Shown one piece after another: positions 856 through 33,115 of a DNA stretch of 44,370 nt (its first letter is position 1; each line of letters opens with the position of its first letter). The notes under the pieces are model-generated. The model was given only the letters and a program-made list of their open reading frames with translations, made no database searches and was not told the DNA's origin. Source of the DNA: a virus (taxonomy: Duplodnaviria > Caudoviricetes); the IMG/VR virus record IMGVR_UViG_3300016466_000283, positions 1 to 44,370 of that record, one strand, 5' to 3'. The position numbers and the translations under genes were made by a program.

Positions 856-2598
856 ATGCCAAAACTAGAAGAACAATTAAATGAACAAGTATTAAATGGG
901 ACTGTATCTGTAAATAACCAAAATTTACAACAGGCTTTAATTGAAACTGCTGTGTTAGATGACTTAAATGATGTGGCTATTTCTAGTCCTATAAATGGAC
1001 AGATATTACAATATGATAGTGCAGATAGTACTTGGAAAAATGAAAACAATACTTTTTCAGGAGCTACACTAAATGGAGCGTCTATTATAAATAGCACACT
1101 TGAAAATAATACAGTAACTACTGGTACTTATTCATCACCAGTCAATGAAGCATTACTTATAAAAGCTAGAAAAGCTAGTGCTGGAACCATAACTAAAGGA
1201 CAAGTAGTATATATTACAGGTTCATCTGGAACTCACTTATTAGTAGAGTTGGCTCAAGCTAATACTGAAGCTACATCTGCTTATACTATTGGAATTGCAG
1301 CTACAAATATAACTAATACAGCTGATGGTTATATAATGCAAAATGGTAGGTTAACAGGATTGTCTACTTTACCAACTGCTAGTTTTATTGATGGAGATAC
1401 TTTATATTTATCTGAGACAACTGCTGGTGGATATAGAAAAACAATACCTACAGCTCCAAATCACGGTGTATTCTTAGGATTTGTTGTTAGAGCAAGCAAT
1501 GGAGCAACTGGTGAAATTGATGTTAGAATAGATAACTATCAAGAACTTGAAGAATTATCAGATGTTAATATAACTGGAGTTGCTGCTAATAATTTTTTAG
1601 TTAGAAATGCTACAAATACCAGATGGGAAAATAAAACAACTTCTGATGTTAAAACAACGTTAAATATAGACACTTTAGAATTGCAAACAAAGATTAGAAA
1701 TGCTGGGTTAATAAATGGATTTATAAGAGTAACAGTAGCAAGTAATAACCTTACTGTAGCAATTAGTACAAGCCCTACATCACAGGTAGACCCTACACCT
1801 GCTAATCCTGTGTATGTTTGGATAGATAATACATTAAGAACCATTACTTCTGCTTTGTCTACAACTAATAATGCTGGAACAAATTGGCTGAATTTAGGTA
1901 GTGCTGAAATAGCAGGATGGGAAACAGATTTATTTGTATATATAAGTTGGAATATAGTTGGAAATAACCCAGTAATTGGTGTTGCAAGAATACCTTTTGG
2001 TAGAAGGTTTGATAGTTTTGTTGCATCTGGATTTGATGAAAAAGGAGTATTAAGAGGAGGTAATTTAACAGGTACTGCAAACTCAGACCCTTATGTTAAT
2101 GTTGGTAGATTTGCTGCTACCCTATCTGCTGGAGCTGGGCATACTTGGACTGTACCTACTTTTACTAATACAAATCTAATACAAGCACCTATTTACGAAA
2201 CAAGATTATTAAGATATACTCCAGCATTAGGAACTTTAACTTTAGGAAATGGTGATAGATTAGCAGAATATTCAATACAAAACAATCAATTATTTTTCAA
2301 ATGTTCATTTAGATTTGGTAGTACATCTTCTTTATCTGCTGGACAATTTAGTTTTGGCTCAATACCTATGAAAATTAATCAAGACAATTCAAGCAGTGTT
2401 TTGCTAAATAGAGTTTCTTTCTCAGCACATTTTCACGATAGTGGTTCTCAATTATATGCTATAAATGTTATGCAACAAGCTACTGGAATAAATTTAGTTC
2501 AATGGCACGGCTCTACTGGGATTGTGGGAAACACATCACCAATTGCTACTTGGGCAACAGATGATGGTGCATTTGTGTCTGGAACATATATAATCTAA
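856..2598 (+). CDS. Tail fibre/spike protein 2
   Basis: ORF track 808..2598, but ATG 856 avoids overlap with the previous gene; LDDLNDV/LEELSDV fibre repeats, capsid-fibre-like segment, shared domain [25 protein letters not shown]. Confidence 0.75.
   Translation: MPKLEEQLNEQVLNGTVSVNNQNLQQALIETAVLDDLNDVAISSPINGQILQYDSADSTWKNENNTFSGATLNGASIINSTLENNTVTTGTYSSPVNEALLIKARKASAGTITKGQVVYITGSSGTHLLVELAQANTEATSAYTIGIAATNITNTADGYIMQNGRLTGLSTLPTASFIDGDTLYLSETTAGGYRKTIPTAPNHGVFLGFVVRASNGATGEIDVRIDNYQELEELSDVNITGVAANNFLVRNATNTRWENKTTSDVKTTLNIDTLELQTKIRNAGLINGFIRVTVASNNLTVAISTSPTSQVDPTPANPVYVWIDNTLRTITSALSTTNNAGTNWLNLGSAEIAGWETDLFVYISWNIVGNNPVIGVARIPFGRRFDSFVASGFDEKGVLRGGNLTGTANSDPYVNVGRFAATLSAGAGHTWTVPTFTNTNLIQAPIYETRLLRYTPALGTLTLGNGDRLAEYSIQNNQLFFKCSFRFGSTSSLSAGQFSFGSIPMKINQDNSSSVLLNRVSFSAHFHDSGSQLYAINVMQQATGINLVQWHGSTGIVGNTSPIATWATDDGAFVSGTYII
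1692..1818 (+). repeat. Near-identical DNA block shared by the two tail-fibre genes (other copy about 44272-44370 plus 50-77)
   Basis: attagaaa..ataaatggatttataagagtaacagtagcaagtaataaccttactgtagcaat..aatcctgtgtatgt present in both. Confidence 0.9.
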
Positions 2599-2648
2599 CA
2601 ACAAACATATGACTACAAACAAATGGAACTGGAAAAAATAACTAACCT

Positions 2649-2723
2649 ATGCTCCCAACCACACTAGACAACATAATGATGTTGCTCTTGACATTGTTTT
2701 TATTGTGGAATTTATTTAGGTAA
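2649..2723 (+). CDS. Putative 24-aa hydrophobic peptide
   Basis: Hand translation MLPTTLDNIMMLLLTLFLLWNLFR*. Confidence 0.35.
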   Translation: MLPTTLDNIMMLLLTLFLLWNLFR

Positions 2724-2743
2724 TTGAATTTTACTTTATAGCC

Positions 2744-2758
2744 TCAAAATGATATAAT
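2744..2758 (+). promoter_or_regulatory. Phage-specific (late-type) promoter TCAAAATGATATAAT driving sRNA-1
   Basis: Same motif found before the virion gene blocks. Confidence 0.75.
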
Positions 2759-2764
2759 TGTAGT

Positions 2765-2841
2765 GCCAGTTAGTAGTGTTGCTGGCTTTCTGCTTTGCAA
2801 TCCGTGTGTAGTTTATATGAGTTTTCTGCACGCGGATTTTT
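2765..2841 (+). ncRNA. sRNA-1: 5' hairpin with loop UAGUAGUGUU plus intrinsic terminator
   Basis: Stem GCCAGT 2765-2770 / GCTGGC 2781-2786; terminator stem 2799-2811 / 2826-2838 with two G.U pairs then a T-run; no ORF. Confidence 0.75.
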
Positions 2842-2844
2842 AGT

Positions 2845-2873
2845 TTGACAAAATGAAAAAAGTATGATAATAT
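2845..2873 (+). promoter_or_regulatory. Sigma70-type promoter of the replication operon
   Basis: TTGACA-17 nt-TAATAT with extended TG. Confidence 0.7.
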
Positions 2874-2936
2874 AAGGGTACACAAAGTAAGTGGAGTTAA
2901 GTCAGCTGAAGGACTATAAATTACAGGCGAAGTTAA

Positions 2937-3023
2937 TAACTCAAGAATATCTATACATTGTAATTGTAGAGCTTCTTGCGAGTTACCTGAGAGAAATCTC
3001 GGGCTCTTCGCAAGGAGTTTTTT
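2937..3023 (+). promoter_or_regulatory. Attenuator-like leader (alternative terminator/antiterminator)
   Basis: 2971-2981 pairs with 3008-3018 (followed by a T-run), or 2973-2985 pairs with 2937-2947. Confidence 0.6.
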
Positions 3024-3042
3024 AGTTTATAAAAATAATAAA

Positions 3043-3222
3043 ATGACATACAATCAAGCATTCCCAAAATTATATAGAAAGTTAAAACAACATAATATCA
3101 CTTATAATTCACTTACACTGATTGATAAATTAAAAAAAGTAGAAGAGAAGTATGGAGAGATAAAAGATATCTACCTAGATACTATAGTAAATCAAATATT
3201 GGCAAGTAAGAAAGAAATATGA
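3043..3222 (+). CDS. Hypothetical 59-aa protein
   Basis: Hand translation MTYNQAFPKLYRKLKQ...ASKKEI*; ATGA overlap with the next gene. Confidence 0.7.
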   Translation: MTYNQAFPKLYRKLKQHNITYNSLTLIDKLKKVEEKYGEIKDIYLDTIVNQILASKKEI

Positions 3223-3782
3223 AAAATGAATTAGAAGTATTATTTATACAATTACAAGATAAGCCAATTGCTTATCATAAAATATACTCAGATATTACAG
3301 GTAGTTTAACCTCAGGAGTATTATTATCTCAATTATTATATTGGTATAAAGCAATGGGAGGTAAACAATTTTATAAAACTGACAAAGATTTTATGGACGA
3401 ATTATCTATGGGACTTTGGGAATTAAAAGGAGCTAAGAAAAAATTATTAGATTTGGGATTAATATCTACTGAAAGAAAAGGAATACCAGCTAAAACATAT
3501 TATAATATTAATATAAATAGTATTATTGCACTAATAACTAGTTGTGGGAAAACCAATTCACCAGTTGTTGGAAAAACCAACAACTTGATAGATGAAAAAC
3601 CAACAACTACTACAGAGAATACTCAGAGAATAAACAGATATTATAAAAATTTTGAAAATAAAAAACAAAAACAACCATATTTTATGAACAAACCAATGAC
3701 TAAAGATTTAAAACAAGTTATATGGGGACAAAATGATTTTAGAACATTTGCAGGTAAGAAAGAAGACATAGAGTGGAAATGA
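3219..3782 (+). CDS. Phage replication initiator (lambda O-like winged helix)
   Basis: IAYHKIY..GSLTSGVLLSQLLYW..FYKT..ELSM pattern typical of phage initiators; internal iteron-like repeats. Confidence 0.75.
   Translation: MKNELEVLFIQLQDKPIAYHKIYSDITGSLTSGVLLSQLLYWYKAMGGKQFYKTDKDFMDELSMGLWELKGAKKKLLDLGLISTERKGIPAKTYYNININSIIALITSCGKTNSPVVGKTNNLIDEKPTTTTENTQRINRYYKNFENKKQKQPYFMNKPMTKDLKQVIWGQNDFRTFAGKKEDIEWK
3540..3608. repeat. Iteron-like repeats (probable replication origin)
   Basis: agttgtgggaaaaccaa, agttgttggaaaaaccaacaact, gatgaaaaaccaacaact at 23-24 bp spacing, followed by an A-rich tract. Confidence 0.65.
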
Positions 3783-3788
3783 TATTCA

Positions 3789-3818
3789 TTGACAAATTAT
3801 AATATTGTGTAGTATATT
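3789..3818 (+). promoter_or_regulatory. Sigma70-type promoter
   Basis: TTGACA 3789-3794 and TATATT 3813-3818. Confidence 0.55.
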
Positions 3819-3848
3819 AATTGCAAACAGATAATTACACAACACTAT

Positions 3849-4241
3849 ATGCCTAAAGCAAGAAGAATTATATTAAATATAAACTTTAAAAAAACCATAG
3901 CAGATAATATATTTAGCAGAAAATCAATTATAATTGAATTTAAATCAATTACAGAAGCAGAAGAAAAATTAGGAATAGACAAATCGTTATTACATAAATT
4001 ACTTGAAACAAACAAAGAACTAGAAGGAATATTAGCAATTGTAGAAGGAGATATGGGATTTATAGATAAAACTGAAAAGACTGAAACAGAGACAGCTAAA
4101 GTTAAACAACAAAAAATGAAAGAGCATTTAGAAAGAGTAGCTAATTACTGTAAAAAACATAAAGTTAATTATGTTAAAACTCTAACCAAATGCCCACTTT
4201 GTAAATTAGATGAAGCCAAAACTAAATTCAAAATGCTATAA
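3849..4241 (+). CDS. Putative DNA-binding protein (NUMOD1-like HTH plus C-terminal Cys/His motif)
   Basis: EFKSITEAEEKLGI helix-turn-helix pattern; CKKH..CPLC. Confidence 0.5.
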   Translation: MPKARRIILNINFKKTIADNIFSRKSIIIEFKSITEAEEKLGIDKSLLHKLLETNKELEGILAIVEGDMGFIDKTEKTETETAKVKQQKMKEHLERVANYCKKHKVNYVKTLTKCPLCKLDEAKTKFKML

Positions 4242-4242
4242 T
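4228..4242 (+). promoter_or_regulatory. Late-type promoter TCAAAATGCTATAAT
   Basis: Repeated motif, 25 nt before the tail block. Confidence 0.75.
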
Positions 4243-4266
4243 ATAAATAATTAATTTTTATTTATT

Positions 4267-5622
4267 ATGGCATTATTAAAATATCCAAACAAATTAATTG
4301 TTACAAACGCTCCGACTACTTTTCTTTCAAATGATTATTTAACTACTGGGCAAGCTAGTGTTGTTGTAGATAACGCTTCAACAGGTTCTGGTTATGCTTT
4401 TATTGCAATAGAAAATATTGCTAATGAAAAATGGGAAATTATAAATGTCAGCAGTATATCTGGAAATACAATTAACCTTGCTACTAATACCGTATATACT
4501 CATCAAGCAGGTGCTATAGTCTATTTCTTAAAATATAATCAAATTGAATTTTCTTATTCAACAACTTTAGGAGGTGTAAAATCTGTACTCTCTACAGTCA
4601 ATATTGCGGGGTCAGATGAATATACTCTTTATGAAGACACTGCACACGTATCTGGATATGCCCACACACGCCTTAAAAATTCCGTCTCTGCGACGTTTTC
4701 TGCCTATTCCTCTGCTATCCCCTATACTTACTCAAAAAAGAGTGCGAGAGAGCTAAAAACTCTTGCCTTGTTAGAACTTAATGAAGAGAACTCACCCTCC
4801 ATTACTGATGAGTTTGTATTTAGGTTGATTAATAAAGCTGAGTCTGAAATTGTAAACCTAAGAAAAAAAGGTAAATGGGCTTGGCTTAGAACTCATAACT
4901 ATGCTTTAGGTACTATGGCTGCTGGTGGTTGGAGATTAGCCTTACCTGCAGATATTCAAGATAGAGAGTCTGATGAAAGTATTGAAGAAGTTAAATTTGG
5001 AGCTGGTAATAATTTACAATACTTAGGTCTTAAAGACTGGAATACTATGCTTAATAATGTTAACTATACTGAGTTAACTGCTGATATATCTATCGGAGCT
5101 AGTACAATTTCTGGAGTATTATTTGCTAACTTCCCAGATGAAGGTACGGTTGAAATAGGAAGTAATGTAGTTAAATATACTGGTAAAACTAATACTACTT
5201 TAACTGGTTGTACTGGAGTTACTACTGCAGTTACTGCTGGAGCTACAATATTTCAATCTGTTTCTAGTGGTAAACCTACTTATTACACTATTCAAGATGG
5301 ATATATTTATGTCTATCCTATTGTAGGTGAGCAACAATCTAATAAAGCTCTAATTATGACTTATTATCATACTCCAAAAGTTATCAATACTGGCTATGAT
5401 GAAGTGTCTGTACCTGATGAAACCGCTATTGTAGATTATTTAGTTTGGAAAATAGACGCTAGACTTAATGCAGGTGGTTCAACTGTTGGTCAAATTGCTT
5501 ATCAGTCTTTTCTAACTAAAGCAGATAGAATGCGACGTCAAGAAAGTTCTGGTAGAATTACTGTGCTTAAACCTCATATTTTTAAATACAATACCATAAT
5601 CCAATTTAACGATGAATTATAA
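4267..5622 (+). CDS. Virion protein, probable head-tail adaptor/tail tube-like
   Basis: 451 aa; adaptor-like segments (LINKAESEI..W.WLR; PTYYTI..IYVYP); precedes the nozzle-like gene. Confidence 0.5.
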   Translation: MALLKYPNKLIVTNAPTTFLSNDYLTTGQASVVVDNASTGSGYAFIAIENIANEKWEIINVSSISGNTINLATNTVYTHQAGAIVYFLKYNQIEFSYSTTLGGVKSVLSTVNIAGSDEYTLYEDTAHVSGYAHTRLKNSVSATFSAYSSAIPYTYSKKSARELKTLALLELNEENSPSITDEFVFRLINKAESEIVNLRKKGKWAWLRTHNYALGTMAAGGWRLALPADIQDRESDESIEEVKFGAGNNLQYLGLKDWNTMLNNVNYTELTADISIGASTISGVLFANFPDEGTVEIGSNVVKYTGKTNTTLTGCTGVTTAVTAGATIFQSVSSGKPTYYTIQDGYIYVYPIVGEQQSNKALIMTYYHTPKVINTGYDEVSVPDETAIVDYLVWKIDARLNAGGSTVGQIAYQSFLTKADRMRRQESSGRITVLKPHIFKYNTIIQFNDEL

Positions 5623-5624
5623 CT

Positions 5625-7034
5625 ATGGCAACAGAATCTTATAGACAATTTGATGCAGGTATAATCTCACCTGAGTCTATTGCAAGAGACAAAATTAAAA
5701 GTACTAATCAAAATTCAGTAGCTTTTGCTTATAATGTAGACTTTGATAGTACTATGGGTTATGTTAAAGCTAGAAAAGGTAGTATTAAAATAGGTGCTAG
5801 TATTTCTGGAGTTGAAGATATTCAAGGTATTTCTGCACTTAGAACCTTCTCAAGTAACATACCAGTCGTTGCTACTAGTAATGGCACAAATTCTAATATG
5901 TACTACTGGAATGGGTCAGCTTGGACCGCAAGTACTGGTTGGACATCAAAAGGTCTAGGACAGCACAGATTTGCTCAATTAGGAGGTAGTATATTTGTAG
6001 TTAATGGGGTTAATGATATGATGAGCTCAACTAATGGAGCTAGTTGGGTTACTACTAATTGTCCAACTGCTTTAGTCTTATCTTATATTACAAGATACAG
6101 AGGTAGGCTAATTGCAATGAATACTAATGGCACGGTATATTTTTCATCTATTATAAATCCTGCTGTGTCTCCATTTATTACTTGGACTACTGCTACTAAC
6201 TTTTTTAGAGTTAATCCTGATGATGGTGGATATGCTAGTGGATTTGCTACTGTTGGTAATGTGCTTCTTATATTCAAAAATAATGGATTTTATAGAGCAG
6301 ATATTACTAATGAGTTTGTAGTGCCTGATGATTTGTATCAAGTTGGTGCTGTAAGTCAGGAAGCTATTACAGTTAGTCAAGGTCTATGTTATTTCTATTC
6401 TGGAACTTCTATTTATAAAACTGATGGGTCTGCTTATCCTGTAGATATTGGCAGAACAATTCAGTATTATATTGACTTAATTCCTAATAAGTCAGATGTA
6501 TATATGACATCTGATGAACATTATATCTATTTAGAAGTTGGAAACTTAACTATTAATGGAGTAACTTATAGTAATACAGTGTTTAGATATTCTATCCGTT
6601 CAGATAGTTGGACTATATTTGGGTATCCATATAGAGTAAAACAAGTCTTTTATAATGACAAAGATAATAAAATTTATGCAGGGTCAGTTAATAATATCTA
6701 CGAGATAGAAGGAGATTATCTTAATGACAATAATATTAAAATACCTTATGAAGTTGTATTCCAAGAACTAGATGGTGGTATGCGAGGTATGACTAAATCT
6801 ATAAATAATAATATAGCTATTTACAGTAAGTATGCTAATGGGTCTAGTATTACAATAACTAATGATGAAGGTAAACAGGATACAGTTGGTATAGTATCTG
6901 AGTATAAAGTTGCAAGACCATTTAACATACACGGTAATTGGTTTAATATAAAATGGAGTGGAGTTGTAAATAATAAACTACCAATCTTTGAAGGAGTAGA
7001 TATATTCTATGATAATAAAGGCATAAGAAAATAA
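5625..7034 (+). CDS. Tail nozzle/stabilisation protein (P22 gp10-like)
   Basis: 469 aa beta-propeller-like pattern (NVDFD..G.VKARKG; YRGRLI; LLIFK); position. Confidence 0.6.
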   Translation: MATESYRQFDAGIISPESIARDKIKSTNQNSVAFAYNVDFDSTMGYVKARKGSIKIGASISGVEDIQGISALRTFSSNIPVVATSNGTNSNMYYWNGSAWTASTGWTSKGLGQHRFAQLGGSIFVVNGVNDMMSSTNGASWVTTNCPTALVLSYITRYRGRLIAMNTNGTVYFSSIINPAVSPFITWTTATNFFRVNPDDGGYASGFATVGNVLLIFKNNGFYRADITNEFVVPDDLYQVGAVSQEAITVSQGLCYFYSGTSIYKTDGSAYPVDIGRTIQYYIDLIPNKSDVYMTSDEHYIYLEVGNLTINGVTYSNTVFRYSIRSDSWTIFGYPYRVKQVFYNDKDNKIYAGSVNNIYEIEGDYLNDNNIKIPYEVVFQELDGGMRGMTKSINNNIAIYSKYANGSSITITNDEGKQDTVGIVSEYKVARPFNIHGNWFNIKWSGVVNNKLPIFEGVDIFYDNKGIRK

Positions 7035-7035
7035 T

Positions 7036-7689
7036 ATGGCTAGATTTGTAAACACAAATAATGCTCAACTACTAAATCCAGATGTACAAAACAATCAGAC
7101 TTCACCGTTTGCTCAGAGTTTAGTATCTGAAATTGTACCACCATCAAGATTAGGTGGTGGTGTTATACGAGGTGATTTACAATCTGAAAACTATGTATCA
7201 GGAGCTACTGGGTGGAAATTAAGAAGAGATGGTGTAATAGAGGCTTTAGGTATCCAAATAGCTGGTAATTCTACAATAGCTGGCTGGAATATAGATAGTA
7301 CAACAATATATCAAACAGGGGCAGTTTTAAGCTCTACAGGCTATGTTTCATTTGGTGCTACACCTCCTACTACTTATGGAAATAATGTTGGTGCATATTT
7401 AGGTTATACAGGCAGTAAAGCTAAGTTTAGTTTATATAATAACTCTAATAACTATTTTCAATGGGACGGGGATAAACTGTTAATCAAAGCTGCTAATTTT
7501 ACACTAGATAGTTCTGGTAACATAACAGCTTCTAGTGCTAATATTACAGGAGCTATTACAGCTACATCTGGAAATATATCTGGAACATTAACTATTGGAG
7601 GAGATAATAGTGTTATTATAGACGGTACTAATGCTAGAATAACAGTTAAAAATGGTTCGCTTAATAGTATTATATTAGGTAATATATAA
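7036..7689 (+). CDS. Tail protein
   Basis: LQSENYVSGATGWKLRRDG motif common in tail/host-specificity proteins. Confidence 0.6.
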   Translation: MARFVNTNNAQLLNPDVQNNQTSPFAQSLVSEIVPPSRLGGGVIRGDLQSENYVSGATGWKLRRDGVIEALGIQIAGNSTIAGWNIDSTTIYQTGAVLSSTGYVSFGATPPTTYGNNVGAYLGYTGSKAKFSLYNNSNNYFQWDGDKLLIKAANFTLDSSGNITASSANITGAITATSGNISGTLTIGGDNSVIIDGTNARITVKNGSLNSIILGNI

Positions 7690-8432
7690 TGGCATACGGA
7701 ATACGAGTAGCTAGACCTGGATATAATGCAAGCACTTGTGCTGATTTTGAAACTGCTTTTGATAGTAGATACCCTAATCTAAAAATAGCTTTTCAAGGAG
7801 CTTTTACAACTACTAGTTCTACTTCATCACAAACTGTAGTTACACATAATTTAGGTTATGCACCTGTGTTTTGGTTATATGTAAAAGATAAATATGGGAC
7901 AAATAATATAACTTTAGCTACAACTGGATATAGTCAATTCTTTAGAATAAATGGCACAAATTTAATTTATGATGGTGGTTTAGCTGATGTAATAGAAATA
8001 TATTATTATATATTTCATCAAAAAATAGACCAGAATATTACTTATAATACAGTGAGCAATACACCTACTACACAAGGGACTACTACTGTTGATTATGGAA
8101 TAAGAGTTGCAAAATCAGGATTTGATGCTACAACTGCTAGCCCTAAAGATTTAGCTTGGAGCTCAGAATATCCTAGTCCTATAATACAAAAAATGGCTAC
8201 TGGAACAACTACAACTGCTTCTCAAACAACAATTTTACACGGATTAAATTATTATCCACAATACTTTTTATATTTTTATAATGTATTTGCAGATAGTAGA
8301 TGGCAAGTAGTATTTAACTCTTTTGATTTAGAGTCTTATGCTACAACTTCTGATATAAAATTTACATTTTATGGATTTAACCCTACTTATGATTATGGAC
8401 TATTAATATTAAAAGACCCTATTAAAGTATAA
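7689..8432 (+). CDS. Tail-associated protein (two internal repeats)
   Basis: YGIRVA..G.(D/N)A.T..HNLGY.P unit twice. Confidence 0.6.
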   Translation: MAYGIRVARPGYNASTCADFETAFDSRYPNLKIAFQGAFTTTSSTSSQTVVTHNLGYAPVFWLYVKDKYGTNNITLATTGYSQFFRINGTNLIYDGGLADVIEIYYYIFHQKIDQNITYNTVSNTPTTQGTTTVDYGIRVAKSGFDATTASPKDLAWSSEYPSPIIQKMATGTTTTASQTTILHGLNYYPQYFLYFYNVFADSRWQVVFNSFDLESYATTSDIKFTFYGFNPTYDYGLLILKDPIKV

Positions 8433-13837: not shown

Positions 13838-13882
13838 GTACTACAAAATGGTATAGTATAAATATAATTAATCATATACACT

Positions 13883-14218
13883 ATGGAAAAAAGACTCTAT
13901 GCTCATCAATACAGCGAAAAAGAATTACAAGCAATGACAGAAATCCAACTAATTAATTTGCGTTGTGAAAGTCCTTTAGATGTAAAAGCACTAAGTAAAG
14001 TATTACGTAATGGTAGAAAGTACACATACGAACCTAAAAAGATTACTAAAAATACTAAAGTAAAAACTGAAATAGATGAAGAAAAGTTAAAAGAAGATTT
14101 AGCTAGAATGAAAGAAATTAATAAATTTGATGAAGCTTTACAAGAAGAGATAGAGGAATTAGAAAGAAATTTTGACGCAGTTAAAGCTAAAAAATTGATA
14201 GAAGATATAATGACATAA
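13883..14218 (+). CDS. Hypothetical protein
   Basis: 111-aa ORF behind variant promoter ACAAAATGGTATAGT (13843-13857). Confidence 0.7.
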   Translation: MEKRLYAHQYSEKELQAMTEIQLINLRCESPLDVKALSKVLRNGRKYTYEPKKITKNTKVKTEIDEEKLKEDLARMKEINKFDEALQEEIEELERNFDAVKAKKLIEDIMT

Positions 14219-15379: not shown

Positions 15380-15430
15380 AGTATTACACTCTTCCTTTGC
15401 TCTTTTATAGTATACATTCTGTAATCATTC

Positions 15431-15594
15431 ACACAAACACTGTGTGTAGAGAATTTTATAGAGTTCTTGCCAATTTAGAGGTGTATTGAATTTGACAACT
15501 TAATACATAAGCTTGCCTCGCAGTCAAACTTTGGTCCACACTTTGTACCTTCTTAGCGGTTGGGTATAAAATTCTTTGCACACAGTGTTTGTGT
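15431..15594 (+). ncRNA. Structured RNA closed by a 30-bp stem
   Basis: 15431-15460 pairs with 15565-15594; both non-Watson-Crick positions are G.U on the + strand. Confidence 0.65.
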
Positions 15595-16024: not shown

Positions 16025-16049
16025 CATAATTAAATAAATATGTTATAGT
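16021..16049 (+). promoter_or_regulatory. Sigma70-type promoter of sRNA-2
   Basis: TTGACA-17 nt-TATAGT with extended TG. Confidence 0.8.
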
Positions 16050-16053
16050 GCTA

Positions 16054-16136
16054 GTACCCTTTCTGATAATTTGGGTGCATCGGATACGCCTAAGACCAGA
16101 TATATCTAGCAATAGATTGTCTGGTCTTTTTCTTTT
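16054..16136 (+). ncRNA. sRNA-2: 5' hairpin plus intrinsic terminator, antisense to the leftward operon leader
   Basis: GTACCC/GGGTGC hairpin; terminator aagaccagata..tgtctggtctt plus T-run; shares 8+11 nt with the + strand at 25997-26018. Confidence 0.75.
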
Positions 16137-16147
16137 ACATAAAACTA

Positions 16148-16176: not shown

Positions 16177-16204
16177 AAAAAAGTAATAACTAAACACTAC
16201 ATTT

Positions 16205-18712: not shown

Positions 18713-19122
18713 ACGATATAAAATTTGATTTAAAATATAACCATATTTGTAAAGTATTAGACTTGCCCTTTGAACAACCAATAAAGTTTGAATATCCTAG
18801 AAAACAAATGACTGATGCACAACTATCTATTAATTGCTATGCTTTTGTACAAGACTCAGTAGAACTTATTACTAAAGAATTAGCTAAACACTTAGAAAAA
18901 ATAGATTATATTAAAAACATAGAGGTAGTAGGTGGATATATAAATTTAACTATAGAGTCAGATTATTTAATATTTTTATTAGCAATACAAGAAATGGAGT
19001 TTGAAAGTAATTATGCTTTTCCAATACCTAGTCTACAGGTATGGAGAAGTATAAGATGGGAGTATCCTAAAAGGAAATTTACTTCTGACGAGTTAAAAAG
19101 ATTAATTAGAAAAATAATATGA
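18709..19122 (+). CDS. Protein resembling the arginyl-tRNA synthetase N-terminal domain
   Basis: FEYP..ELAKHL..IKNIEVVGGYINLTI resembles the IEKVEVAGPGFINF signature. Confidence 0.45.
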   Translation: MNDIKFDLKYNHICKVLDLPFEQPIKFEYPRKQMTDAQLSINCYAFVQDSVELITKELAKHLEKIDYIKNIEVVGGYINLTIESDYLIFLLAIQEMEFESNYAFPIPSLQVWRSIRWEYPKRKFTSDELKRLIRKII

Positions 19123-19391
19123 ACTTCAAAATGAAGCCACGAACTAAACGATTGAAACTGAATAAAGCTCAGAGAAATATAATGTATTATGTACTCAAAC
19201 CTCATCAGATAGAGATATTAAAACTTAAGATGAAGGGACATACATATAAAGAAATAGCAGATATGAAAGGAATTACAACAAGTGGAATGTATAGATTTAT
19301 AACTAGAGCAGTAAAGACTATTAATAAATCTTACTTAAGGTATAATATGAGTAAGAAAAAAAGAACTCCTAAAGATAAAAAAGATATATAA
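19119..19391 (+). CDS. HTH protein (sigma70 region 4/LuxR-like)
   Basis: L.PHQIEILKLKMKGHTYKEIADMKGIT. Confidence 0.75.
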   Translation: MNFKMKPRTKRLKLNKAQRNIMYYVLKPHQIEILKLKMKGHTYKEIADMKGITTSGMYRFITRAVKTINKSYLRYNMSKKKRTPKDKKDI

Positions 19392-20475: not shown

Positions 20476-21795
20476 TTATTTCTTATATATAACCTCAAAT
20501 GTTTTAGGTGGTTTTATTAACCCTTGAATTATACCAATACTTTCTACAATAGGAACTATTTGCAACACTAATAATAAAAAAGTATTTATATATATATGTA
20601 AATTATTACCAGTCAATTTATAAGATTTTAAATTTACATATAAACCAACATAATATATTGCAAATGAGATACCAGTTATTAGTGATATTGGAATTACTAA
20701 AAGTGTTGGGATAAAAGATTTGCCTACAATAAGAGTTATTATAGTAATAATTGGAATAGTCCAAGATAATGACCAATTTATTAACATAAAACTTAGTATA
20801 TATTTACATTTTAAAGAGATAGTATTATCTAAGATAACTGTTTTAATACCTGTAAACCACCTTTTTCTTTGTTTAATAAGGTCTTGAATAGTATGAGGAG
20901 ACTGTTCTTCTAATACTCCATTAACCCAATTAAACTTAAACTTTTGTTCCATAGCTCTTAATGAAAACTCAGCATCTTCAGTTATAGATTTACCTTTTAA
21001 ATCCCAAGTAATAGTGTCTGATACAATTTTAGGAATCAACATAAATGAACCGTGCATACCAAAAACAGGGGTATTCATATTAGAATATTGAAATCTAAAT
21101 CTACCTAAATCATCACCACTTCTTACAGCATCTATAACTTCAATAGGAATAGTTTTAGATAGTAAATTATTTTGATAACTTGTAATATCTGAATTATAAG
21201 TTATTAACCCTTGACCTATAACATCTTTATTATTAGTTTTAAAGAACTCATTGATACCTAAATACAATTCATAAGTCATTGTAGATTCTTCATCGCAATG
21301 AAAAGTATAGTCTGTTTGAATAAACTGTCTAACATATTCTAATGCTCTGGCTTTATATAAAACATTATTAGAAGTTTTATAGTGTTTAGGAACTAATATA
21401 TAGTTAACATTATCAATCCTATATTTTTTAGGAATTTTAATGTCCGTAACTACAGCATAATTAACTGAATAAAAGTTAGGTTTCTGAGCAATAGAATTTT
21501 TAATTGCTGAATGCAGTGCATTTACATTATTGCCTCTTGATACCCATAATACAGTATACGAGGTTTTAGATGGAGGATATATTTTAGGAGATTGAGGTTT
21601 ACCTTTTATCAACCCTATAAAATTAGACACAGCATATATAAGAGGTGTAATCCATATTAACTGCCCAATCATTAACATATAATCAAGTGTAGAATTAGGA
21701 ATTGCAGGTTCAGTATATTGAATAATTAATATACCAAATATAATCCACATTAATATTGGTATAATAATATGGAGATAGTATGTAGTGTTTTTCAT
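20476..21795 (-). CDS. Membrane GT2 glycosyltransferase, egghead-like
   Basis: KARALEY, HCDEES, GDDLGRFR.QY, GMHGSF, ITED, EQSP..IKQRKRW (QxxRW); multiple TM helices. Confidence 0.85.
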   Translation of the reverse strand: MKNTTYYLHIIIPILMWIIFGILIIQYTEPAIPNSTLDYMLMIGQLIWITPLIYAVSNFIGLIKGKPQSPKIYPPSKTSYTVLWVSRGNNVNALHSAIKNSIAQKPNFYSVNYAVVTDIKIPKKYRIDNVNYILVPKHYKTSNNVLYKARALEYVRQFIQTDYTFHCDEESTMTYELYLGINEFFKTNNKDVIGQGLITYNSDITSYQNNLLSKTIPIEVIDAVRSGDDLGRFRFQYSNMNTPVFGMHGSFMLIPKIVSDTITWDLKGKSITEDAEFSLRAMEQKFKFNWVNGVLEEQSPHTIQDLIKQRKRWFTGIKTVILDNTISLKCKYILSFMLINWSLSWTIPIITIITLIVGKSFIPTLLVIPISLITGISFAIYYVGLYVNLKSYKLTGNNLHIYINTFLLLVLQIVPIVESIGIIQGLIKPPKTFEVIYKK

Positions 21796-21799: not shown

Positions 21800-22045
21800 T
21801 TATTTTAATATCATCTCTAGCCAATCTTCAAACAGAAGTATCTCATCATCATATTTTTTAGTGATAATAGTCTGTCTGTAGTCTTTATATCTATTGTACC
21901 AAATAAGAGCATTTTGAGTAGAGACAAGGTTTTGTAGTCGTTCTCTGTCTTTTGAATTGTATAGAAGAGCATCATACTCCTCTTGCAATCTATCTAACTC
22001 TTCGCATTTCTGAGTGTACAATTGTTTATAGTTTTCTCTAGCCAT
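21800..22045 (-). CDS. Hypothetical protein
   Basis: 81-aa ORF; start overlapped by AACACTAT. Confidence 0.75.
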   Translation of the reverse strand: MARENYKQLYTQKCEELDRLQEEYDALLYNSKDRERLQNLVSTQNALIWYNRYKDYRQTIITKKYDDEILLFEDWLEMILK

Positions 22046-22055
22046 AGTGTTTTAC

Positions 22056-22622
22056 TTATTTAATTATTGAATAATTTTCATTCAAGAACTGTAATTTATA
22101 TATATCTAATTTTCCTTTATCATTGAATTCTGCATAATAATAAATATATATATCTGGTTGAAATATATGTGCCTTCTCTTCTCCTGCAAACTTTTTAGTT
22201 CCACCATTTCCTCTTCCATATTCATCTCTTTCTATTACAGTATATGTAGTTAAAAAATCAGGAGCAAACTTTGTAAATTTATAATTTTCTATATAATATT
22301 GAATATAAATTTGTTTATCATCTTCTAAAAGTTCTTTTATTTCTGCTATAGCTTCATCTGTAAAATTTGTATATAAAATTCTTTTTATACAACACATTTT
22401 ACTCCAAACTATAGTTTCATTATTACTAATTTCATCTATTTTATTAAATTTATTTATATAATATTTTATGTGGTCTTTTGTATTATCTGATGTAATTATT
22501 ATTTTGGCATATACTGGACTCCAATAATCTTTACAATATTCAGGGGCTGATGAAAAAAAGCGAGCCATAAATCCCAATACATCAAGAGGATAACCGTTTG
22601 TATTCCATATATTCTTTTTCAT
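22056..22622 (-). CDS. Hypothetical protein
   Basis: 188-aa ORF; start overlapped by AACACTAT. Confidence 0.75.
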   Translation of the reverse strand: MKKNIWNTNGYPLDVLGFMARFFSSAPEYCKDYWSPVYAKIIITSDNTKDHIKYYINKFNKIDEISNNETIVWSKMCCIKRILYTNFTDEAIAEIKELLEDDKQIYIQYYIENYKFTKFAPDFLTTYTVIERDEYGRGNGGTKKFAGEEKAHIFQPDIYIYYYAEFNDKGKLDIYKLQFLNENYSIIK

Positions 22623-22631
22623 AGTGTTTTA

Positions 22632-24166: not shown

Positions 24167-24313
24167 TTAATCTTTATCTTCTAATATTATATCATCTTGT
24201 TTAATTTTGTACTTATCTTTGAGTCTATCTTGAATAAACTTCTGTACTCGCTTCTCTGATTCTATTGCATTCACAAAAATGTTTTGAATTTCTTTTAGCT
24301 CATCTGTATACAT
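24167..24313 (-). CDS. Hypothetical 48-aa protein
   Basis: Hand translation MYTDELKEIQNIFVNAIESEK...EDKD*; fills the gap. Confidence 0.65.
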   Translation of the reverse strand: MYTDELKEIQNIFVNAIESEKRVQKFIQDRLKDKYKIKQDDIILEDKD

Positions 24314-24318
24314 AGTAT

Positions 24319-24501
24319 TTAATCTTTAATTCTAAATTGCTCCCGTAGTGATTCTATAACCTCCATCTTCTCATATATTGTTAATATGTTTGTGCGGTCT
24401 ATAATCTCTTTTGCCCTTGCAAAAGTTATCTCTCTTGAATATATTTTGCTTGCCAAGTGTTTGAATGTTCTCTCTTGCCAATATGTGTCTCTGCTTTCCA
24501 T
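24319..24501 (-). CDS. Hypothetical protein
   Basis: 60-aa ORF; start overlapped by AACACTAT. Confidence 0.7.
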   Translation of the reverse strand: MESRDTYWQERTFKHLASKIYSREITFARAKEIIDRTNILTIYEKMEVIESLREQFRIKD

Positions 24502-24513
24502 AGTGTTTATAAT

Positions 24514-24936: not shown

Positions 24937-25107
24937 TTATTTTAATATAGATGGATATATTTCTTTCAATTCCTTTTGTACCTCTTCTAGTTGTCTATAT
25001 AATACCTCTTGATATATGCTAGTCTCTCCTATATTCTGAATTATAGTATTTATATCTAAGAATATTTTGTTTAGTTGTACTTTGTTTAGTTCTTGTAGTG
25101 TTGACAT
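24937..25107 (-). CDS. Hypothetical protein
   Basis: Start moved to ATG 25107 (MSTLQELNK); the ATG at 25158 lies inside a hairpin. Confidence 0.65.
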   Translation of the reverse strand: MSTLQELNKVQLNKIFLDINTIIQNIGETSIYQEVLYRQLEEVQKELKEIYPSILK

Positions 25108-25183: not shown

Positions 25184-25363
25184 CTATTTAATATATTCAA
25201 TTTTGATGCATTTTGCCATTAAGTCATTTTCACCATTTCCTAAGTTGAAATATCTATTTAAATAATAGTTTTCTATAGTTTTATTATCACCATTCACGGT
25301 ACTAATAAAATTGACCCCATTGTCAAAATATACTTTTACAGTTTGCCTTTGTAGTGTTTCCAT
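25184..25363 (-). CDS. Hypothetical 59-aa protein
   Basis: Hand translation METLQRQTVKVYFDNG...CIKIEYIK*. Confidence 0.7.
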   Translation of the reverse strand: METLQRQTVKVYFDNGVNFISTVNGDNKTIENYYLNRYFNLGNGENDLMAKCIKIEYIK

Positions 25364-25666
25364 ATGTTTAAAATTTAAAATAATTAATTATTTATTTAGC
25401 CACTCATTAAACCCAAACCTTGTGAAGGTTTTCCTAATGCATAAATCTTTTAGTTTATAACTAGATAGGGTATAAATTCTATAAACAAACCTTTTATTCT
25501 TCCATAGTGTTTTGTGGGCTAATAGTTTACAAATGAATTTTTGCATATATCTAAAATTAAAGTTTTAATAATAATTGTTTTATAGTTTCCTAAAGTTGGT
25601 ATATAAAAGACTCTATCTATAATATAGTTAGTACATTATCTTATAAAGTCTTTTATTTTTTAAATG

Positions 25667-25801: not shown

Positions 25802-25819
25802 TGTAGTGTTTTTAATTGT

Positions 25820-25978: not shown

Positions 25979-26092
25979 ATGTTGTAGTGTTTAACTTGAT
26001 AATTATTTGCATCGGATAAGAGATTGACAACTGTTGACGGCTACTTTATTACTTATGAGCTCGCGGTCGTTGTTCTCTCTCTCATCTGATAA
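25979..26092 (-). promoter_or_regulatory. Structured 5' leader of the leftward operon carrying both sRNA target sites
   Basis: atcagatgaga..tcttatccgat stem; sites at 25984-25991 and 25997-26018. Confidence 0.55.
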
Positions 26093-27993: not shown

Positions 27994-28021
27994 AAGTAAT
28001 AATAATTTAATAAACACTACA

Positions 28022-29417: not shown

Positions 29418-30388
29418 ATCAAGAACAATTTAATACCTTACCAGATGAATTAAAATCATTGTATATAAAACTTCCTAATCCTTCCAGTGATGAGGTGAAA
29501 GAGTGTTTTCCTGAAACAAAAACAGGTAAAGCAATTCGTAGTAATTCTGGTGGTAAAACATTTGGTGGAGAAAACATAAAACCTGCTATGGAAGATTTAG
29601 GCTATGAAGATGGTGGTGGCAACGTTTCTCGTTTTTTCAAATCAATACTTTATCAAGCAAAGAGTTCAAAATCTGAACGCAATAAAGGGCTTGACAAGTT
29701 AGTGTTAGTTGATATAATGGAAGTATTAAATAATAATACTACATTATGCGAAAAGAGTTTAATCAAAGAGGTCAAATTAGCACAGCTCCTGGTGGGTATG
29801 GAACAATCGGGCTTCACGGTCACCGCCGTGTCTGGGACACAGAACAAAAGCGTTACCGAATGGAGCATCGGGTTATTTGGGAAAGATACAACGGAAAAAT
29901 ACCAAGAGGACTACAAATCCATCATATTGATGGAAACCCACTCAATAATGCCATTGAAAATTTACAAATGGTTAATTCACTTACTCACAAACGGATACAT
30001 TCAGGATGTGAGTTTAGAGACGGCTACTGGTGGAAACCTTGTAGGAAGTGCGGAGAATTACAGCGAATTGACAATTACTATAAACGAAAAGATGGCATTA
30101 GCTCTTGGTGTAAAAAATGCTCAATCGCCAACGCGGTTGAAAATAAGCGTAAAAGAAGGTAAGTCAGGTCACCCAACCGTGAAACCAATAGCACTTATGG
30201 AATATCTAATTAAAATGGTAACTCCAAAAGGTGGGATAGTATTAGACCCTTTTATGGGTTCAGGAAGTACAGGTGTGGCTGCAAAGAAGAACGGATATGA
30301 CTTTATAGGGATAGATATGACCCCAGAATATGTAAAAATAGCTAAAGCAAGAATAAATGCTACTGAAATAGAAAATAGACTACTATAA
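29405..30388 (+). CDS. DNA methyltransferase, C-terminal fragment (SAM-binding)
   Basis: SDEVKECFP, SRFF, HPTVKPIALMEYLI, VLDPFMGSGSTG. Confidence 0.9.
   Translation: MYKINQEQFNTLPDELKSLYIKLPNPSSDEVKECFPETKTGKAIRSNSGGKTFGGENIKPAMEDLGYEDGGGNVSRFFKSILYQAKSSKSERNKGLDKLVLVDIMEVLNNNTTLCEKSLIKEVKLAQLLVGMEQSGFTVTAVSGTQNKSVTEWSIGLFGKDTTEKYQEDYKSIILMETHSIMPLKIYKWLIHLLTNGYIQDVSLETATGGNLVGSAENYSELTITINEKMALALGVKNAQSPTRLKISVKEGKSGHPTVKPIALMEYLIKMVTPKGGIVLDPFMGSGSTGVAAKKNGYDFIGIDMTPEYVKIAKARINATEIENRLL
29691..29718 (+). promoter_or_regulatory. Internal promoter for the nested HNH gene
   Basis: TTGACA-16 nt-TATAAT with extended TG, inside the MTase ORF. Confidence 0.7.
29746..30162 (+). mobile_element. 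HNH endonuclease fully nested out of frame inside the MTase C-fragment
   Basis: EHRVIWE..IP.GLQIHHIDGNPLNN.IENL..H; C-terminal CRKC..CKKC. Confidence 0.85.
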
Positions 30389-30418: not shown

Positions 30419-30472
30419 ATTTGTATAATTAAACACTACGAATTATGAAATTAAAATATAAACTTTAAAGGT

Positions 30473-31305: not shown

Positions 31306-31421
31306 CCCAAAAAAGACCCTGTGAAGAGTCTTATTTGAGATACAAAAACAATAACTTGTTAGTTATTACTCTATTATTATTACATATTGTATTTATTTTG
31401 TCAAAATAGTATACTGTATAT

Positions 31422-31624: not shown

Positions 31625-31645
31625 ATCAGTAATTAAAACAACACT

Positions 31646-33115
31646 ATGCCTAGACCTAAAAAAAATGTTGAGGAAAAAAAAGAACCTAAGTATATTTGGC
31701 AGCCTCATCCAGGTGCTCAAACTGAAGTTTTATTAAGGTCAGAGAAAGAAATATTGTTTGGTGGAGCTAGAGGAGGTGGCAAGACTGATGCTGGTATTGC
31801 TTGGATGATTGAACCTGAATATGTGTCTAATCCTGCTTATAGAGGGCTTGTTTTACGTCTTAATGCTACTGATTTAGGCGATTGGCTAGATAGAGCTAAT
31901 AGATTATATTCTCATTTAGGGGCTAAGATGACTGGTCAACCTTCTGAAATTATATTCCCTTCTGGTGCTAAAATTAGAACTGGTCATCTTGCTGATGAAG
32001 AAGCTTATAACAAGTATAAAGGACACGAATACCAAAAGATTTTGATTGAAGAGTTAACTCAGATACCTTCTGAAAGTCGTTATTTGAAACTATTAGGGTC
32101 TTGTAGGTCTACTATTCCTGGTCTGGAAGCTCAGATATTCTGTACTACTAACCCTGATGGTGTAGGTCATTTATGGGTTAAGAAAAGATTTATTGAAGGT
32201 AAACAAATGGGTAGAACTTTTTATGCTCAAGATGGTAGTACTAGAGTATTTATCCCCTCTTCTATTGAAGATAACCCTTCTTTGTTGTCTACTCCTGGTT
32301 ATATGCAGTATTTAGAGTCTATTAAAGAAACTGACCCTGAATTATATAAACAATGGCGTTATGGAGATTGGACTTCTTTTCAATTAAAAGGTAGTATTTA
32401 TGGCGATTTAATAGATAAAGCCTATGCAGATAATAGAATAATTAGATTTGCTATTGAACCTTCTATACCTGTTAATGGTCTATGGGATTTAGGTATGGAT
32501 GACGCTATGGCTATCTGGCTATATCAACAAGTTGGTAAAGAAGTTAGGTTTATTGGTTATTATGAAAATATGGATGAAGGATTTCAACATTATTATGATG
32601 TATTAAAAGAAATAGCTAAAGACAGAAACTTTACTTTAGGAGTACAATACATACCTCACGACGGTAGAATAAGAGAATTAGGTACTGGCGTGTCTCGTTT
32701 ATCTGTTTTAAGAGATTTATTTGGTGAGGAGAATGTAATGCTTAATATGTCTGAAAAATCACCTATTCCAGCTGTTCACGACGGTATAGAAGGTGTTAAA
32801 CGTATTATTAATACTTCTTATTTCCACGCTGACTATTGTGAAAAAGGTTTAGACCAATTAAAAATGTATCGCAGAAAATGGAATGAGAAAATGAATGTAT
32901 ATCTAAAAGACCCTGTTCACGATGAATTTTCTCACTGTGCTGACGCTTTAAGAACTGGAGCTACTATTATCACTCCAGGTACTTTAGGAGAATGGGGTAA
33001 GAAAGTTATTACACCAGCTCAACTTAATACTTTATCTAATATGACATATTATAGAAATAATCCTAGAGAATTAAGACGTTTATTAATTAGAAGTGTTAAA
33101 AATATTAGAAAATAA
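31646..33115 (+). CDS. terL: Terminase large subunit
   Basis: Walker A GGARGGGKT, Walker B ILIEELTQ, TTNP, WDLG, HD..SH.ADA. Confidence 0.95.
   Translation: MPRPKKNVEEKKEPKYIWQPHPGAQTEVLLRSEKEILFGGARGGGKTDAGIAWMIEPEYVSNPAYRGLVLRLNATDLGDWLDRANRLYSHLGAKMTGQPSEIIFPSGAKIRTGHLADEEAYNKYKGHEYQKILIEELTQIPSESRYLKLLGSCRSTIPGLEAQIFCTTNPDGVGHLWVKKRFIEGKQMGRTFYAQDGSTRVFIPSSIEDNPSLLSTPGYMQYLESIKETDPELYKQWRYGDWTSFQLKGSIYGDLIDKAYADNRIIRFAIEPSIPVNGLWDLGMDDAMAIWLYQQVGKEVRFIGYYENMDEGFQHYYDVLKEIAKDRNFTLGVQYIPHDGRIRELGTGVSRLSVLRDLFGEENVMLNMSEKSPIPAVHDGIEGVKRIINTSYFHADYCEKGLDQLKMYRRKWNEKMNVYLKDPVHDEFSHCADALRTGATIITPGTLGEWGKKVITPAQLNTLSNMTYYRNNPRELRRLLIRSVKNIRK

What the first reader, a model, noticed from the sequence alone, without database searches (positions are those of the whole stretch)
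2744..2841. Late-promoter sRNA whose loop is antisense to a motif at 16 start codons: a phage multi-target translational switch
Seen: a ~77-nt non-coding unit (promoter, hairpin, terminator) exposes 5'-GUAGUGUU-3' (2773-2780) in its loop. The complement AACACTAY lies on the sense strand within -13..+18 of ATGs at 3849, 16205, 18002, 19963, 28022, 30445, 31646 (+) and 21795, 22045, 22622, 24501, 25107, 25363, 25505, 25801, 25978 (-); two of these (25505, 30445) are mini-ORFs. Only about 5 other copies were seen by eye. The variable base (C/T) faces a G, as G-C/G.U pairing predicts, and 24313 carries another wobble variant (AATACTAT). Sites lie upstream of, across or inside the first codons, which does not fit Shine-Dalgarno spacing but fits ribosome occlusion. 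No virion structural gene has the full motif at its start. Established: bacterial sRNAs use loop seeds to block initiation. Inference: one late sRNA silences the early/middle regulon (accessory operon, recombination genes, MTase, TerL) through sites built into the genome. I know of no described phage system of this breadth.
Basis: partly seen in the sequence, partly recalled or inferred. Interest (0 to 1): 0.95.

Follow-up and report, generated by a model that had tools for sequence, protein, structure and literature searches.

The report
Phage small RNA masking early starts
An uncultured phage carries a predicted 77-base RNA whose conserved loop is the exact mirror of an 8-base tag at 16 of its own non-structural start codons, so one small RNA likely damps translation of many early genes, although no transcript has been seen.

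Summary
AACACTAY occurs 23 times (5.5 expected). Sixteen copies lie at -13..+10 of a start codon, all on the sense strand: 16 of 34 non-structural starts, 0 of 26 late starts (p=1.7e-5). Its complement fills the unpaired loop of a promoter-hairpin-terminator unit at 2765-2841 (z -4.8). A relative with 74% capsid identity (G005) keeps the unit at the same place with the same seed, a changed but still paired stem and an unrelated terminator, and has the tag at 9 starts; sites were gained, lost and moved between lineages but stay at starts. Best reading: a trans-acting phage sRNA that likely blocks initiation on early/middle mRNAs (0.65). Corrections: 'late' is not conserved, since the relative's promoter is host-type; RecT and the replication initiator have no site while TerL has one; six of seven T variants are just the T of ATG. 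No transcript, no relative with a changed seed, host unknown. It works like P1 c4 or GcvB but belongs to neither family. I found no published phage regulon of this breadth; this scan's own unchecked notes list about 30 look-alikes.

The parts
2730..2758 (+). Predicted promoter of the RNA: TTTACT, 17-nt spacer, TG-extended TATAAT; includes the late-type CAAAATG box at 2745-2751
   Evidence: G005 homolog has TTGACT-17-TACTAT with the hairpin's first G 7 nt behind the -10 hexamer, as here
2765..2841 (+). Predicted 77-nt small RNA: seed hairpin, linker, terminator hairpin, U tract
   Evidence: fold z -4.78; + strand -27.8 against - strand -16 kcal/mol; no Rfam match; kept in G002 (5' end cut off), G003, G005
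2765..2786 (+). Seed hairpin, 6 pairs, 10-nt loop 2771-2780
   Evidence: in G005 the closing U.G is A-U, the basal G-C is G.U and the loop has 8 nt
2773..2780 (+). Seed GUAGUGUU, complement of AACACUAY
   Evidence: unchanged in G002, G003, G005
2799..2841 (+). Predicted intrinsic terminator: 13-pair stem, 14-nt loop, five U; would also end the tail-operon transcript
   Evidence: two one-sided changes keep pairing in G002/G003; unrelated sequence with the same layout in G005
3841..3848 (+). Site at -8 of 3849 (130 aa, first gene after TTGACA promoter 3789)
   Evidence: absent from the G005 orthologue
16193..16200 (+). Site at -12 of 16205 (first gene after promoter 16148)
   Evidence: kept in G003, G005, L013, L061-L064
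18012..18019 (+). Site at +10 inside the exonuclease gene 18002
   Evidence: kept in G003; 7 of 8 bases in G005 and L064; TAT form in L062
19957..19964 (+). Site at -6 of 19963
21782..21789 (-). Site at +6 inside the glycosyltransferase gene 21795
22044..22051 (-). Site at -6 of 22045
22621..22628 (-). Site at -6 of 22622
24500..24507 (-). Site at -6 of 24501
25095..25102 (-). Site at +5 inside 25107
25351..25358 (-). Site at +5 inside 25363
25504..25511 (-). Site at -6 of the 3-codon mini-ORF 25505
25803..25810 (-). Site at -9 of 25801
   Evidence: at -12 in G003
25984..25991 (-). Site at -13 of 25978 (first gene after promoter 26125, - strand)
28013..28020 (+). Site at -9 of the DNA methyltransferase gene 28022
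30432..30439 (+). Site at -13 of the 7-codon mini-ORF 30445 (first ATG after promoter 30390)
   Evidence: same in G003
31640..31647 (+). Site at -6 of the large terminase gene 31646 (after promoter 31596)
   Evidence: lies at -11 in G005 and G172
24312..24319 (-). Wobble variant AATACTAT at -6 of 24313
29735..29742 (+). Wobble variant AATACTAC at -11 of the HNH gene 29746
13877..13884 (+). 7-of-8 variant at -6 of late-class gene 13883: a partial exception
   Evidence: kept in G002, G003, L060-L063, not in G005

Best explanation
The locus at 2765-2841 likely makes a 77-nt trans-acting RNA whose exposed loop would pair over 8 bases with the AACACUAY tag that sits at 16 of the phage's non-structural start codons, likely blocking ribosome entry and damping those genes as the RNA builds up. 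Shown: the unit's layout, the exact complementarity, the tag's confinement to the sense strand of non-structural starts, and conservation of both in a relative. Inferred: transcription from the promoter at 2730-2758 (and as the 3' end of tail-operon transcripts), pairing in the cell, and repression. Repression is favoured because 6 sites cover the A and U of AUG and 4 lie in the first six codons. The likely logic is a delayed brake: targets and RNA are both transcribed by host-type promoters, the structured RNA accumulates and is boosted late, and early proteins are made as a pulse. An incoming related phage would be damped the same way.
For: Enrichment: 23 against 5.5; 16 against 1.3 in column-permuted start regions; 16 of 34 against 0 of 26. 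In-gene sites use all three reading frames, so the tag is not a protein motif. Of 1082 non-coding hairpins in 41 genomes or fragments, only 5 had a loop complementary to a start-enriched 7-mer at log10 p below -5: this hairpin in G000, G003 and G005, and one side hit at 15441 in G000 and G003 that is an arm of a longer stem; the rest reached -4.1 at best. G005 (MCP 74%, TerL 85%) keeps the unit between the tail-fibre and replication genes with the seed unchanged, the stem altered but paired and a different terminator; 10 of its 11 ACACTAC copies are 8 start sites, the loop and one leader site. Sites turn over: TerL -6 to -11, 25801 -9 to -12, gain at the 16579 orthologue, absence at the 3849, 19963, 22045 and 24501 orthologues. 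In G005 the early-operon leader holds a 16-nt exact complement of that RNA's linker beside a seed site (duplex -35.2, next -27.1; 0 of 300 shuffles reach 16 nt with the 5' 36 nt, 6 of 300 with all 82 nt). G.U pairs, the U tract and the promoter point to the + strand; no - strand promoter-like site lies between 2790 and 3230. Pairing at the start codon or in the first five codons is a documented repression route (PMC9486967, passages).
Against: No transcript seen. No relative with a changed seed and matching changed sites, so true co-variation is not shown; only three other genomes hold the locus and two are about 95% identical. The one-base register shift between lineages is not significant (first base not A in 3 of 9 G005 starts against 1 of 17 here, p=0.10; p=0.02 only after adding two G172 sites whose RNA is unseen). 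The seed duplex is short (-8.7 to -12.6 kcal/mol), and over all starts duplex energy separates early from late only weakly (p=0.06). The base after the tag is A in 8 of 9 free sites and never U, though the window's loop has A facing it (p about 0.01); this fits the G005 loop better and is unexplained here. TerL is a target; RecT and the initiator are not. The extended leader match is not in the window's leader, and G172 keeps only 11 nt of it; it could be an old inverted duplication.
Confidence: 0.65

Rival explanations
1. The RNA pairs with the tags but raises translation or stabilises the mRNAs, acting as an adaptor in a phage whose starts lack Shine-Dalgarno sequences.
For: 0 of 60 curated starts have an AGGA, GGAG or GAGG at -15..-4; ACA motifs enhance translation in GcvB targets (PMC3879156, abstract); several unchecked notes of this scan report such loops matching late structural genes.
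Against: Six sites would bury the AU of AUG and four lie in the first codons; offsets span 23 nt, unlike a positioning signal; late genes, which need most protein, lack the tag.
Confidence: 0.1
2. A phage protein (RegA-like repressor or RegB-like nuclease) reads AACACUAYR on early mRNAs; the RNA loop shields those sites or matches them as a by-product.
For: T4 shuts early mRNAs at start regions with proteins (PMC3014915, passages); the purine after the tag is not explained by the window's loop; most early proteins have no family.
Against: No RegA or RegB label among the families shown for 58 proteins in PHROGs or 46 in Pfam (best 5 shown per protein); a decoy would carry the tag in sense, yet strand evidence favours the antisense loop; the seed alone is conserved in a diverged RNA.
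Confidence: 0.1
3. Same pairing and repression, but its main job is immunity: holding a persistent infection quiet or excluding related phages, as c4 and CI RNAs do, and not timing the lytic cycle.
For: Host-type promoter in G005 and in one contig of a relative; the first start after 5 of the 12 TTGACA promoter matches carries the exact tag; the G005 leader site recalls P4 CI acting on leader sequences (PMC4825925, passage).
Against: No integrase, repressor or partition family among the hits shown; the record is a complete genome with direct terminal repeats; the window's promoter has the late box.
Confidence: 0.08
4. The tag is a host initiation signal or a DNA site, and the hairpin is only part of the tail-operon terminator; the match is chance.
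For: ACT before ATG is common at all starts here; the host is unknown; some Parcubacteria lack the anti-SD motif (PMC9297842, passages).
Against: Late genes lack it; relatives at about 35% MCP identity show no enrichment; AACACTAY before ATG is about as rare as its control in 151 genomes of the phylum of the Saccharibacteria genome G020; none of 20 16S 3' ends from that phylum carries the seed; 16 of 16 sites are sense-strand; the loop is the part conserved.
Confidence: 0.07

Closest known systems
c4 antisense RNA of phages P1/P7 (PMC5320573, passages read)
   Same: About 77 nt, phage-encoded, acts in trans through loop sequences on phage mRNA at the ribosome-binding region.
   Different: c4 has three stem-loops, two pairing loops, is cut from a precursor by RNase P and serves lysogeny and immunity; this unit has one seed loop, its own promoter and terminator, 16 dispersed targets and no Rfam match.
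GcvB of enterobacteria (PMC3879156, abstract read)
   Same: One RNA, many targets; pairs with ACA-containing elements at flexible distance from the start. The G/U-rich seed is recalled, not read.
   Different: GcvB is a host gene acting on amino-acid uptake and metabolism genes beside SD motifs, with Hfq; here RNA and targets are in one phage genome without SD motifs, and the tag is one exact 8-mer.
CI RNA of satellite phage P4 (PMC4825925, one passage read)
   Same: Small phage RNA that silences phage genes by pairing; the G005 early leader has an extended complement away from any start codon.
   Different: CI is processed from the transcript it controls, pairs with flanking seqA and seqC and causes termination; here targets lie up to 29 kb away and at start codons.
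T4 RegA and RegB (PMC3014915, passages read)
   Same: One factor shuts many early or middle mRNAs at their start regions (RegA about 30 mRNAs), easing the shift to late expression.
   Different: These are proteins; RegA sites lack a clear consensus and RegB cuts GGAG. Here the predicted factor is an RNA and the site an exact complement.
Other phage sRNAs: sar, OOP, aQ, sas, PreS, VpdS, 24B_1 (PMC12197685, parts 1-2 of 6 and term passages read)
   Same: Phage-encoded base-pairing regulators.
   Different: In the parts read they are cis-antisense to one gene, act on host genes or compete for Hfq; none is described as pairing with a shared tag on many phage start codons.

Membership tests
P1/P7 c4 antisense RNA | Match to the Rfam model | tested here: not met
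   0 matches at gathering score; 4 unrelated weak matches at E<=5, none at this locus
P1/P7 c4 antisense RNA | Three stem-loops with two target-pairing loops | tested here: not met
   two hairpins; only the first loop has start-site complements
P1/P7 c4 antisense RNA | Released from a precursor by RNase P | not testable with these tools
   no RNA ends available; the hairpin begins at a predicted +1
P1/P7 c4 antisense RNA | Loop complementary to the initiation region of phage mRNA | tested here: met
   16 starts, by sequence only
P4 CI RNA | Processed from the target transcript, with target sites flanking it | tested here: not met
   targets are dispersed over both strands
P4 CI RNA | Causes premature transcription termination | not testable with these tools
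   needs transcript mapping; the G005 leader site is a candidate
GcvB-type multi-target sRNA | Single-stranded seed complementary to ACA-containing elements near many starts | tested here: met
   seed unpaired at 0.72-0.99; 16 of 34 non-structural starts
GcvB-type multi-target sRNA | Sequence homology to GcvB and an amino-acid regulon in the host chromosome | tested here: not met
   no Rfam match; the matched sites are phage genes; host targets could not be examined
GcvB-type multi-target sRNA | Hfq dependence | not testable with these tools
   host unknown
T4 RegA/RegB control | Phage encodes a RegA or RegB protein | tested here: inconclusive
   no such label among hits shown for 58 (PHROGs) and 46 (Pfam) proteins; many have no family
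Shine-Dalgarno-type signal | Complementary to the host 16S 3' end | tested here: inconclusive
   none of 20 3' ends from the candidate host phylum carries the seed; the true host is not known
Shine-Dalgarno-type signal | Fixed spacing upstream of the start, also at highly expressed genes | tested here: not met
   offsets -13..+10; 0 of 26 late starts

The most novel reading that the evidence does not exclude
A phage runs a genome-wide, RNA-only translational brake: one 77-nt RNA controls about a quarter of its start codons through a private 8-base tag that genes gain and lose by point change, timing early expression in a phage without Shine-Dalgarno motifs. It would be the RNA counterpart of T4 RegA/RegB and one of the clearest cases of an undescribed class of phage anti-start RNAs.
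Probability: 0.55. Interest if true: 0.87.

Novelty: new variant of a known kind. Interest (0 to 1): 0.74.

Why it matters
How phages turn down early proteins after transcription is known mainly from T4 proteins, and the phage antisense RNAs in the review passages I read have one or two phage targets. A single RNA with a built-in tag on 16 starts would add an RNA regulon to the phage developmental programme. It is directly testable with a 77-nt RNA and short reporters, with compensatory mutations obvious from the sequence. It also offers a compact, possibly chaperone-free knock-down design for bacteria that start translation without SD pairing, and a testable rule for screening phage genomes (one search is such a screen).

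Tried and rejected
Expression: 4 RNA runs were laid on 2200-8199, all as contigs. X15 has one contig of a relative over 2592-2787 (19 other letters, 8 gaps; the 13 listed lie at or before 2755, 6 are not shown). It spans non-coding DNA upstream of the predicted start and the run holds a 41.5-kb record, so DNA is likely: no evidence either way. X16 and X19 gave short pieces elsewhere, X17 none. More homologs: pattern scans of viral contigs gave 1 locus and 23 loci, of which 2 are real (G003, G005) and 21 chance by layout; scans with the replication protein, MCP, the 4267 protein and TerL added no further copy of the locus; the metagenome scan gave clade contigs too short to reach it; genome scans gave nothing and one Saccharibacteria contig at 33% MCP identity; blastn against GenBank phages hit only the AT-rich downstream promoter in the 15 rows shown of 157. 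Changed-seed analogue: G006 (MCP 35%) has a loop complementary to AAACTAY at 8 of 31 starts (expected 1.4, log10 p -4.0), but half overlap ATG, the targets are mainly late genes, and the hairpin was not found in G007 (MCP 81% to G006) or other loci: not accepted as co-variation. The 15441 hit is one arm of a long stem whose matching base changes in relatives. A second copy of the RNA in G005 (L123 1085-1040, - strand) was rejected: no stable fold (z 0.56); it reads better as a target on the other strand. A 19-nt G.U-allowed complement at about 31510-31528 is reached by 4 of 60 shuffles: not significant. An 11-nt linker match at start 24904 is lost in G003. No covariance model was built: three sequences, and the alignment misplaced the 3' arm. 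Screens ran on 20-kb pieces; the last 669 nt of G003 and 218 nt of G007 were left out, and automatic gene calls miss ORFs under 40 aa. Literature: 9 searches returned listings; none showed such a phage system. The library lacks most subscription papers. In PMC10690425 six supplementary files gave no match, but three files, two of them very large, could not be searched, so the RNA may be listed there as a candidate structure.

Full report
Setting. The window is a complete 44,370-base phage genome with direct terminal repeats, 32% G+C. PHROGs and Pfam place the major capsid protein at 12867, endolysin at 14568, RecT at 16889, an exonuclease at 18002, a glycosyltransferase at 21795 (-), a split methyltransferase at 28022-30388, TerL at 31646, tail proteins at 41206 and a replication initiator at 3219. 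None of 60 curated starts has an SD 4-mer at -15..-4. Two promoter types stand out as pattern matches: TTGACA with a -10 hexamer before non-structural genes, and CAAAATG-N-TA before nine structural, lysis or packaging genes. The host is not known. Leads point to Patescibacteria: an MCP relative at 33% in a Saccharibacteria MAG and TerL at 37% in a TM7 phage. Both are weak.

The observation. The unit and the 16 sites are as described. The tag occurs 23 times against 5.5 expected. With a null that keeps ATG and the A-rich start context, 16 of 60 start regions carry it against a mean of 1.3, and the C form, which cannot overlap ATG, 9 against 0.04. It is sense-strand only, at 16 of 34 non-structural and 0 of 26 late starts (p=1.7e-5; the classes are mine). 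The four sites inside genes use all three frames. The six copies away from starts match the chance number.

The RNA. The hairpin starts 7 nt behind the -10 hexamer, the loop is open, and a 13-pair hairpin with five U follows; z -4.78. The opposite strand folds less well (-16 against -27.8) and has no promoter-like site close upstream, which argues against a sense-strand decoy. Rfam has no match.

Relatives. G002 and G003 (MCP 100%) keep the unit, with two one-sided changes in the terminator stem that keep pairing. G005 (complete, MCP 74%, TerL 85%) has the homolog between its tail-fibre and replication genes, though its replication gene is a different one. The seed is unchanged, the closing pair is A-U for U.G, the basal pair G.U for G-C, the loop has 8 nt, and the terminator is unrelated in sequence; z -4.61. 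ACACTAY lies at 9 of its starts; of 11 ACACTAC copies (shuffle mean 4.7, 2 of 200 reach 11), 8 are at starts, one is the loop and one is in a leader. Sites move, appear and vanish between orthologues but stay at starts. In a screen of 1082 non-coding hairpins from 41 genomes or fragments, this hairpin was the best hit in all three full genomes that hold it (log10 p -9.3, -9.9, -10.7), and no hairpin outside the clade passed -4.1. Phages at about 35% MCP identity show no enrichment of the tag.

A second line in G005. Its early-operon leader, about 55 nt behind a TTGACA-17-TATAAT promoter, has a 16-nt exact complement of the RNA's linker next to a seed site. The 5' 36-nt query was chosen after seeing the match; with the whole RNA 6 of 300 shuffles reach 16 nt, before counting the adjacent seed site. 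The window has no such leader match and G172 keeps 11 nt. It supports pairing but could be a relic duplication.

What is not shown. No transcript. No seed change with matching site change; the one-base shift in site register that follows the shorter G005 loop is suggestive only (p=0.10), and the G006 analogue did not replicate. The duplex is 8 pairs, -8.7 to -12.6 kcal/mol. The purine after the tag does not fit the window's loop.

Timing. The window's promoter has the late box, but the G005 promoter is TTGACT-17-TACTAT, and one contig of another relative also reads TTGACT and has lost the TG (single contig, depth 11). In both phages the unit also closes the tail operon, so late read-through would add to it. 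I therefore read it as a brake that builds up through infection, not as a purely late switch. TerL as a target, and RecT and the initiator as non-targets, fit damping of selected genes. The first start after five TTGACA promoter matches carries the exact tag, so repression might also act on downstream genes by polarity (inference).

Rivals. A host signal is unlikely: spacing varies over 23 nt, late genes lack it, the tag-plus-ATG pattern is about as rare as its control in 151 genomes of the candidate host phylum, and none of 20 16S ends there carries the seed (61 genomes searched, 20 with a match). Some Parcubacteria lack the anti-SD motif (PMC9297842), and the real host may be outside the sample. 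A protein reader in the manner of T4 RegA or RegB (PMC3014915) cannot be excluded but leaves the conserved antisense loop unexplained. Activation is possible but sits badly with sites over AUG and in the first codons (PMC9486967).

Known systems. It works like c4 (PMC5320573), CI (PMC4825925) and GcvB (PMC3879156) but fails their defining features where testable. Nine literature searches and two of six parts of a 2025 review (PMC12197685) showed no phage RNA with a shared tag on many phage starts; this is limited by the library and by unsearched supplements. This scan's notes hold about 30 similar, mostly unchecked candidates in other phages. They are not support, but they mean the idea is not unique to this window, while hinting at a wider class.

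Verdict. Observation confirmed; interpretation partly supported. A predicted multi-target phage sRNA, repressing at start codons with probability about 0.65; new variant of a known kind; interest 0.74.

Noticed in passing
window 15430-15594 (+): Long branched hairpin leader between a TTGACA promoter (15351) and gene 15611; 5 of 54 predicted pairs show two-sided changes among 3 sequences; no Rfam match.
   Followed up: partly
window 31402-31590 (+): Second structured non-coding unit before TerL: late-type promoter, two long hairpins, terminator-like end; kept in G003 and G005 with conserved internal-loop blocks (z -1.9 to -4.1). Holds a non-significant 19-nt wobble complement of the sRNA.
   Followed up: partly
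window 2609-2723 (+): A 10-codon ORF and a 24-residue hydrophobic ORF just upstream of the sRNA promoter; G003 has both, and G005 has a 17-codon ORF carrying the tag and a 30-residue hydrophobic ORF at the same place.
   Followed up: partly
window 28022-30388 (+): DNA methyltransferase in two or more pieces with two HNH genes (28899, 29746) between them, suggesting mobile introns; G003 has an unbroken 421-aa gene.
   Followed up: no
window 19119-19391 (+): 90-aa protein with a weak sigma-70 region 4 match (E 1.3e-5, below the cut-off), kept in G005 at 46%: candidate activator of the CAAAATG promoters.
   Followed up: no
window 35518-38772 (+): 1084-aa late protein with a weak polyvalent ADP-ribosyltransferase match (E 1.2e-6, below the cut-off), possibly an injected protein acting on the bacterial host.
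   Followed up: no
L123 1049-1074 (+), G005: Extended complement of the G005 RNA in the early-operon leader: a strong target or a sponge.
   Followed up: partly
L134 about 7260-7340 (-), G006: Intergenic hairpin whose loop is complementary to AAACTAY, found at 8 of 31 starts and on both sides of the hairpin; not seen in relatives.
   Followed up: partly
window 2870-3040 and 16040-16140 (+): Leaders behind TTGACA promoters 2845 and 16021 contain hairpins followed by T runs, possible attenuators or further small RNAs (seen by eye).
   Followed up: no
L201 416-3898 (-), G174: TerL relative of 1160 aa in an otherwise unrelated, SD-using phage, with the match interrupted, possibly by inteins.
   Followed up: no
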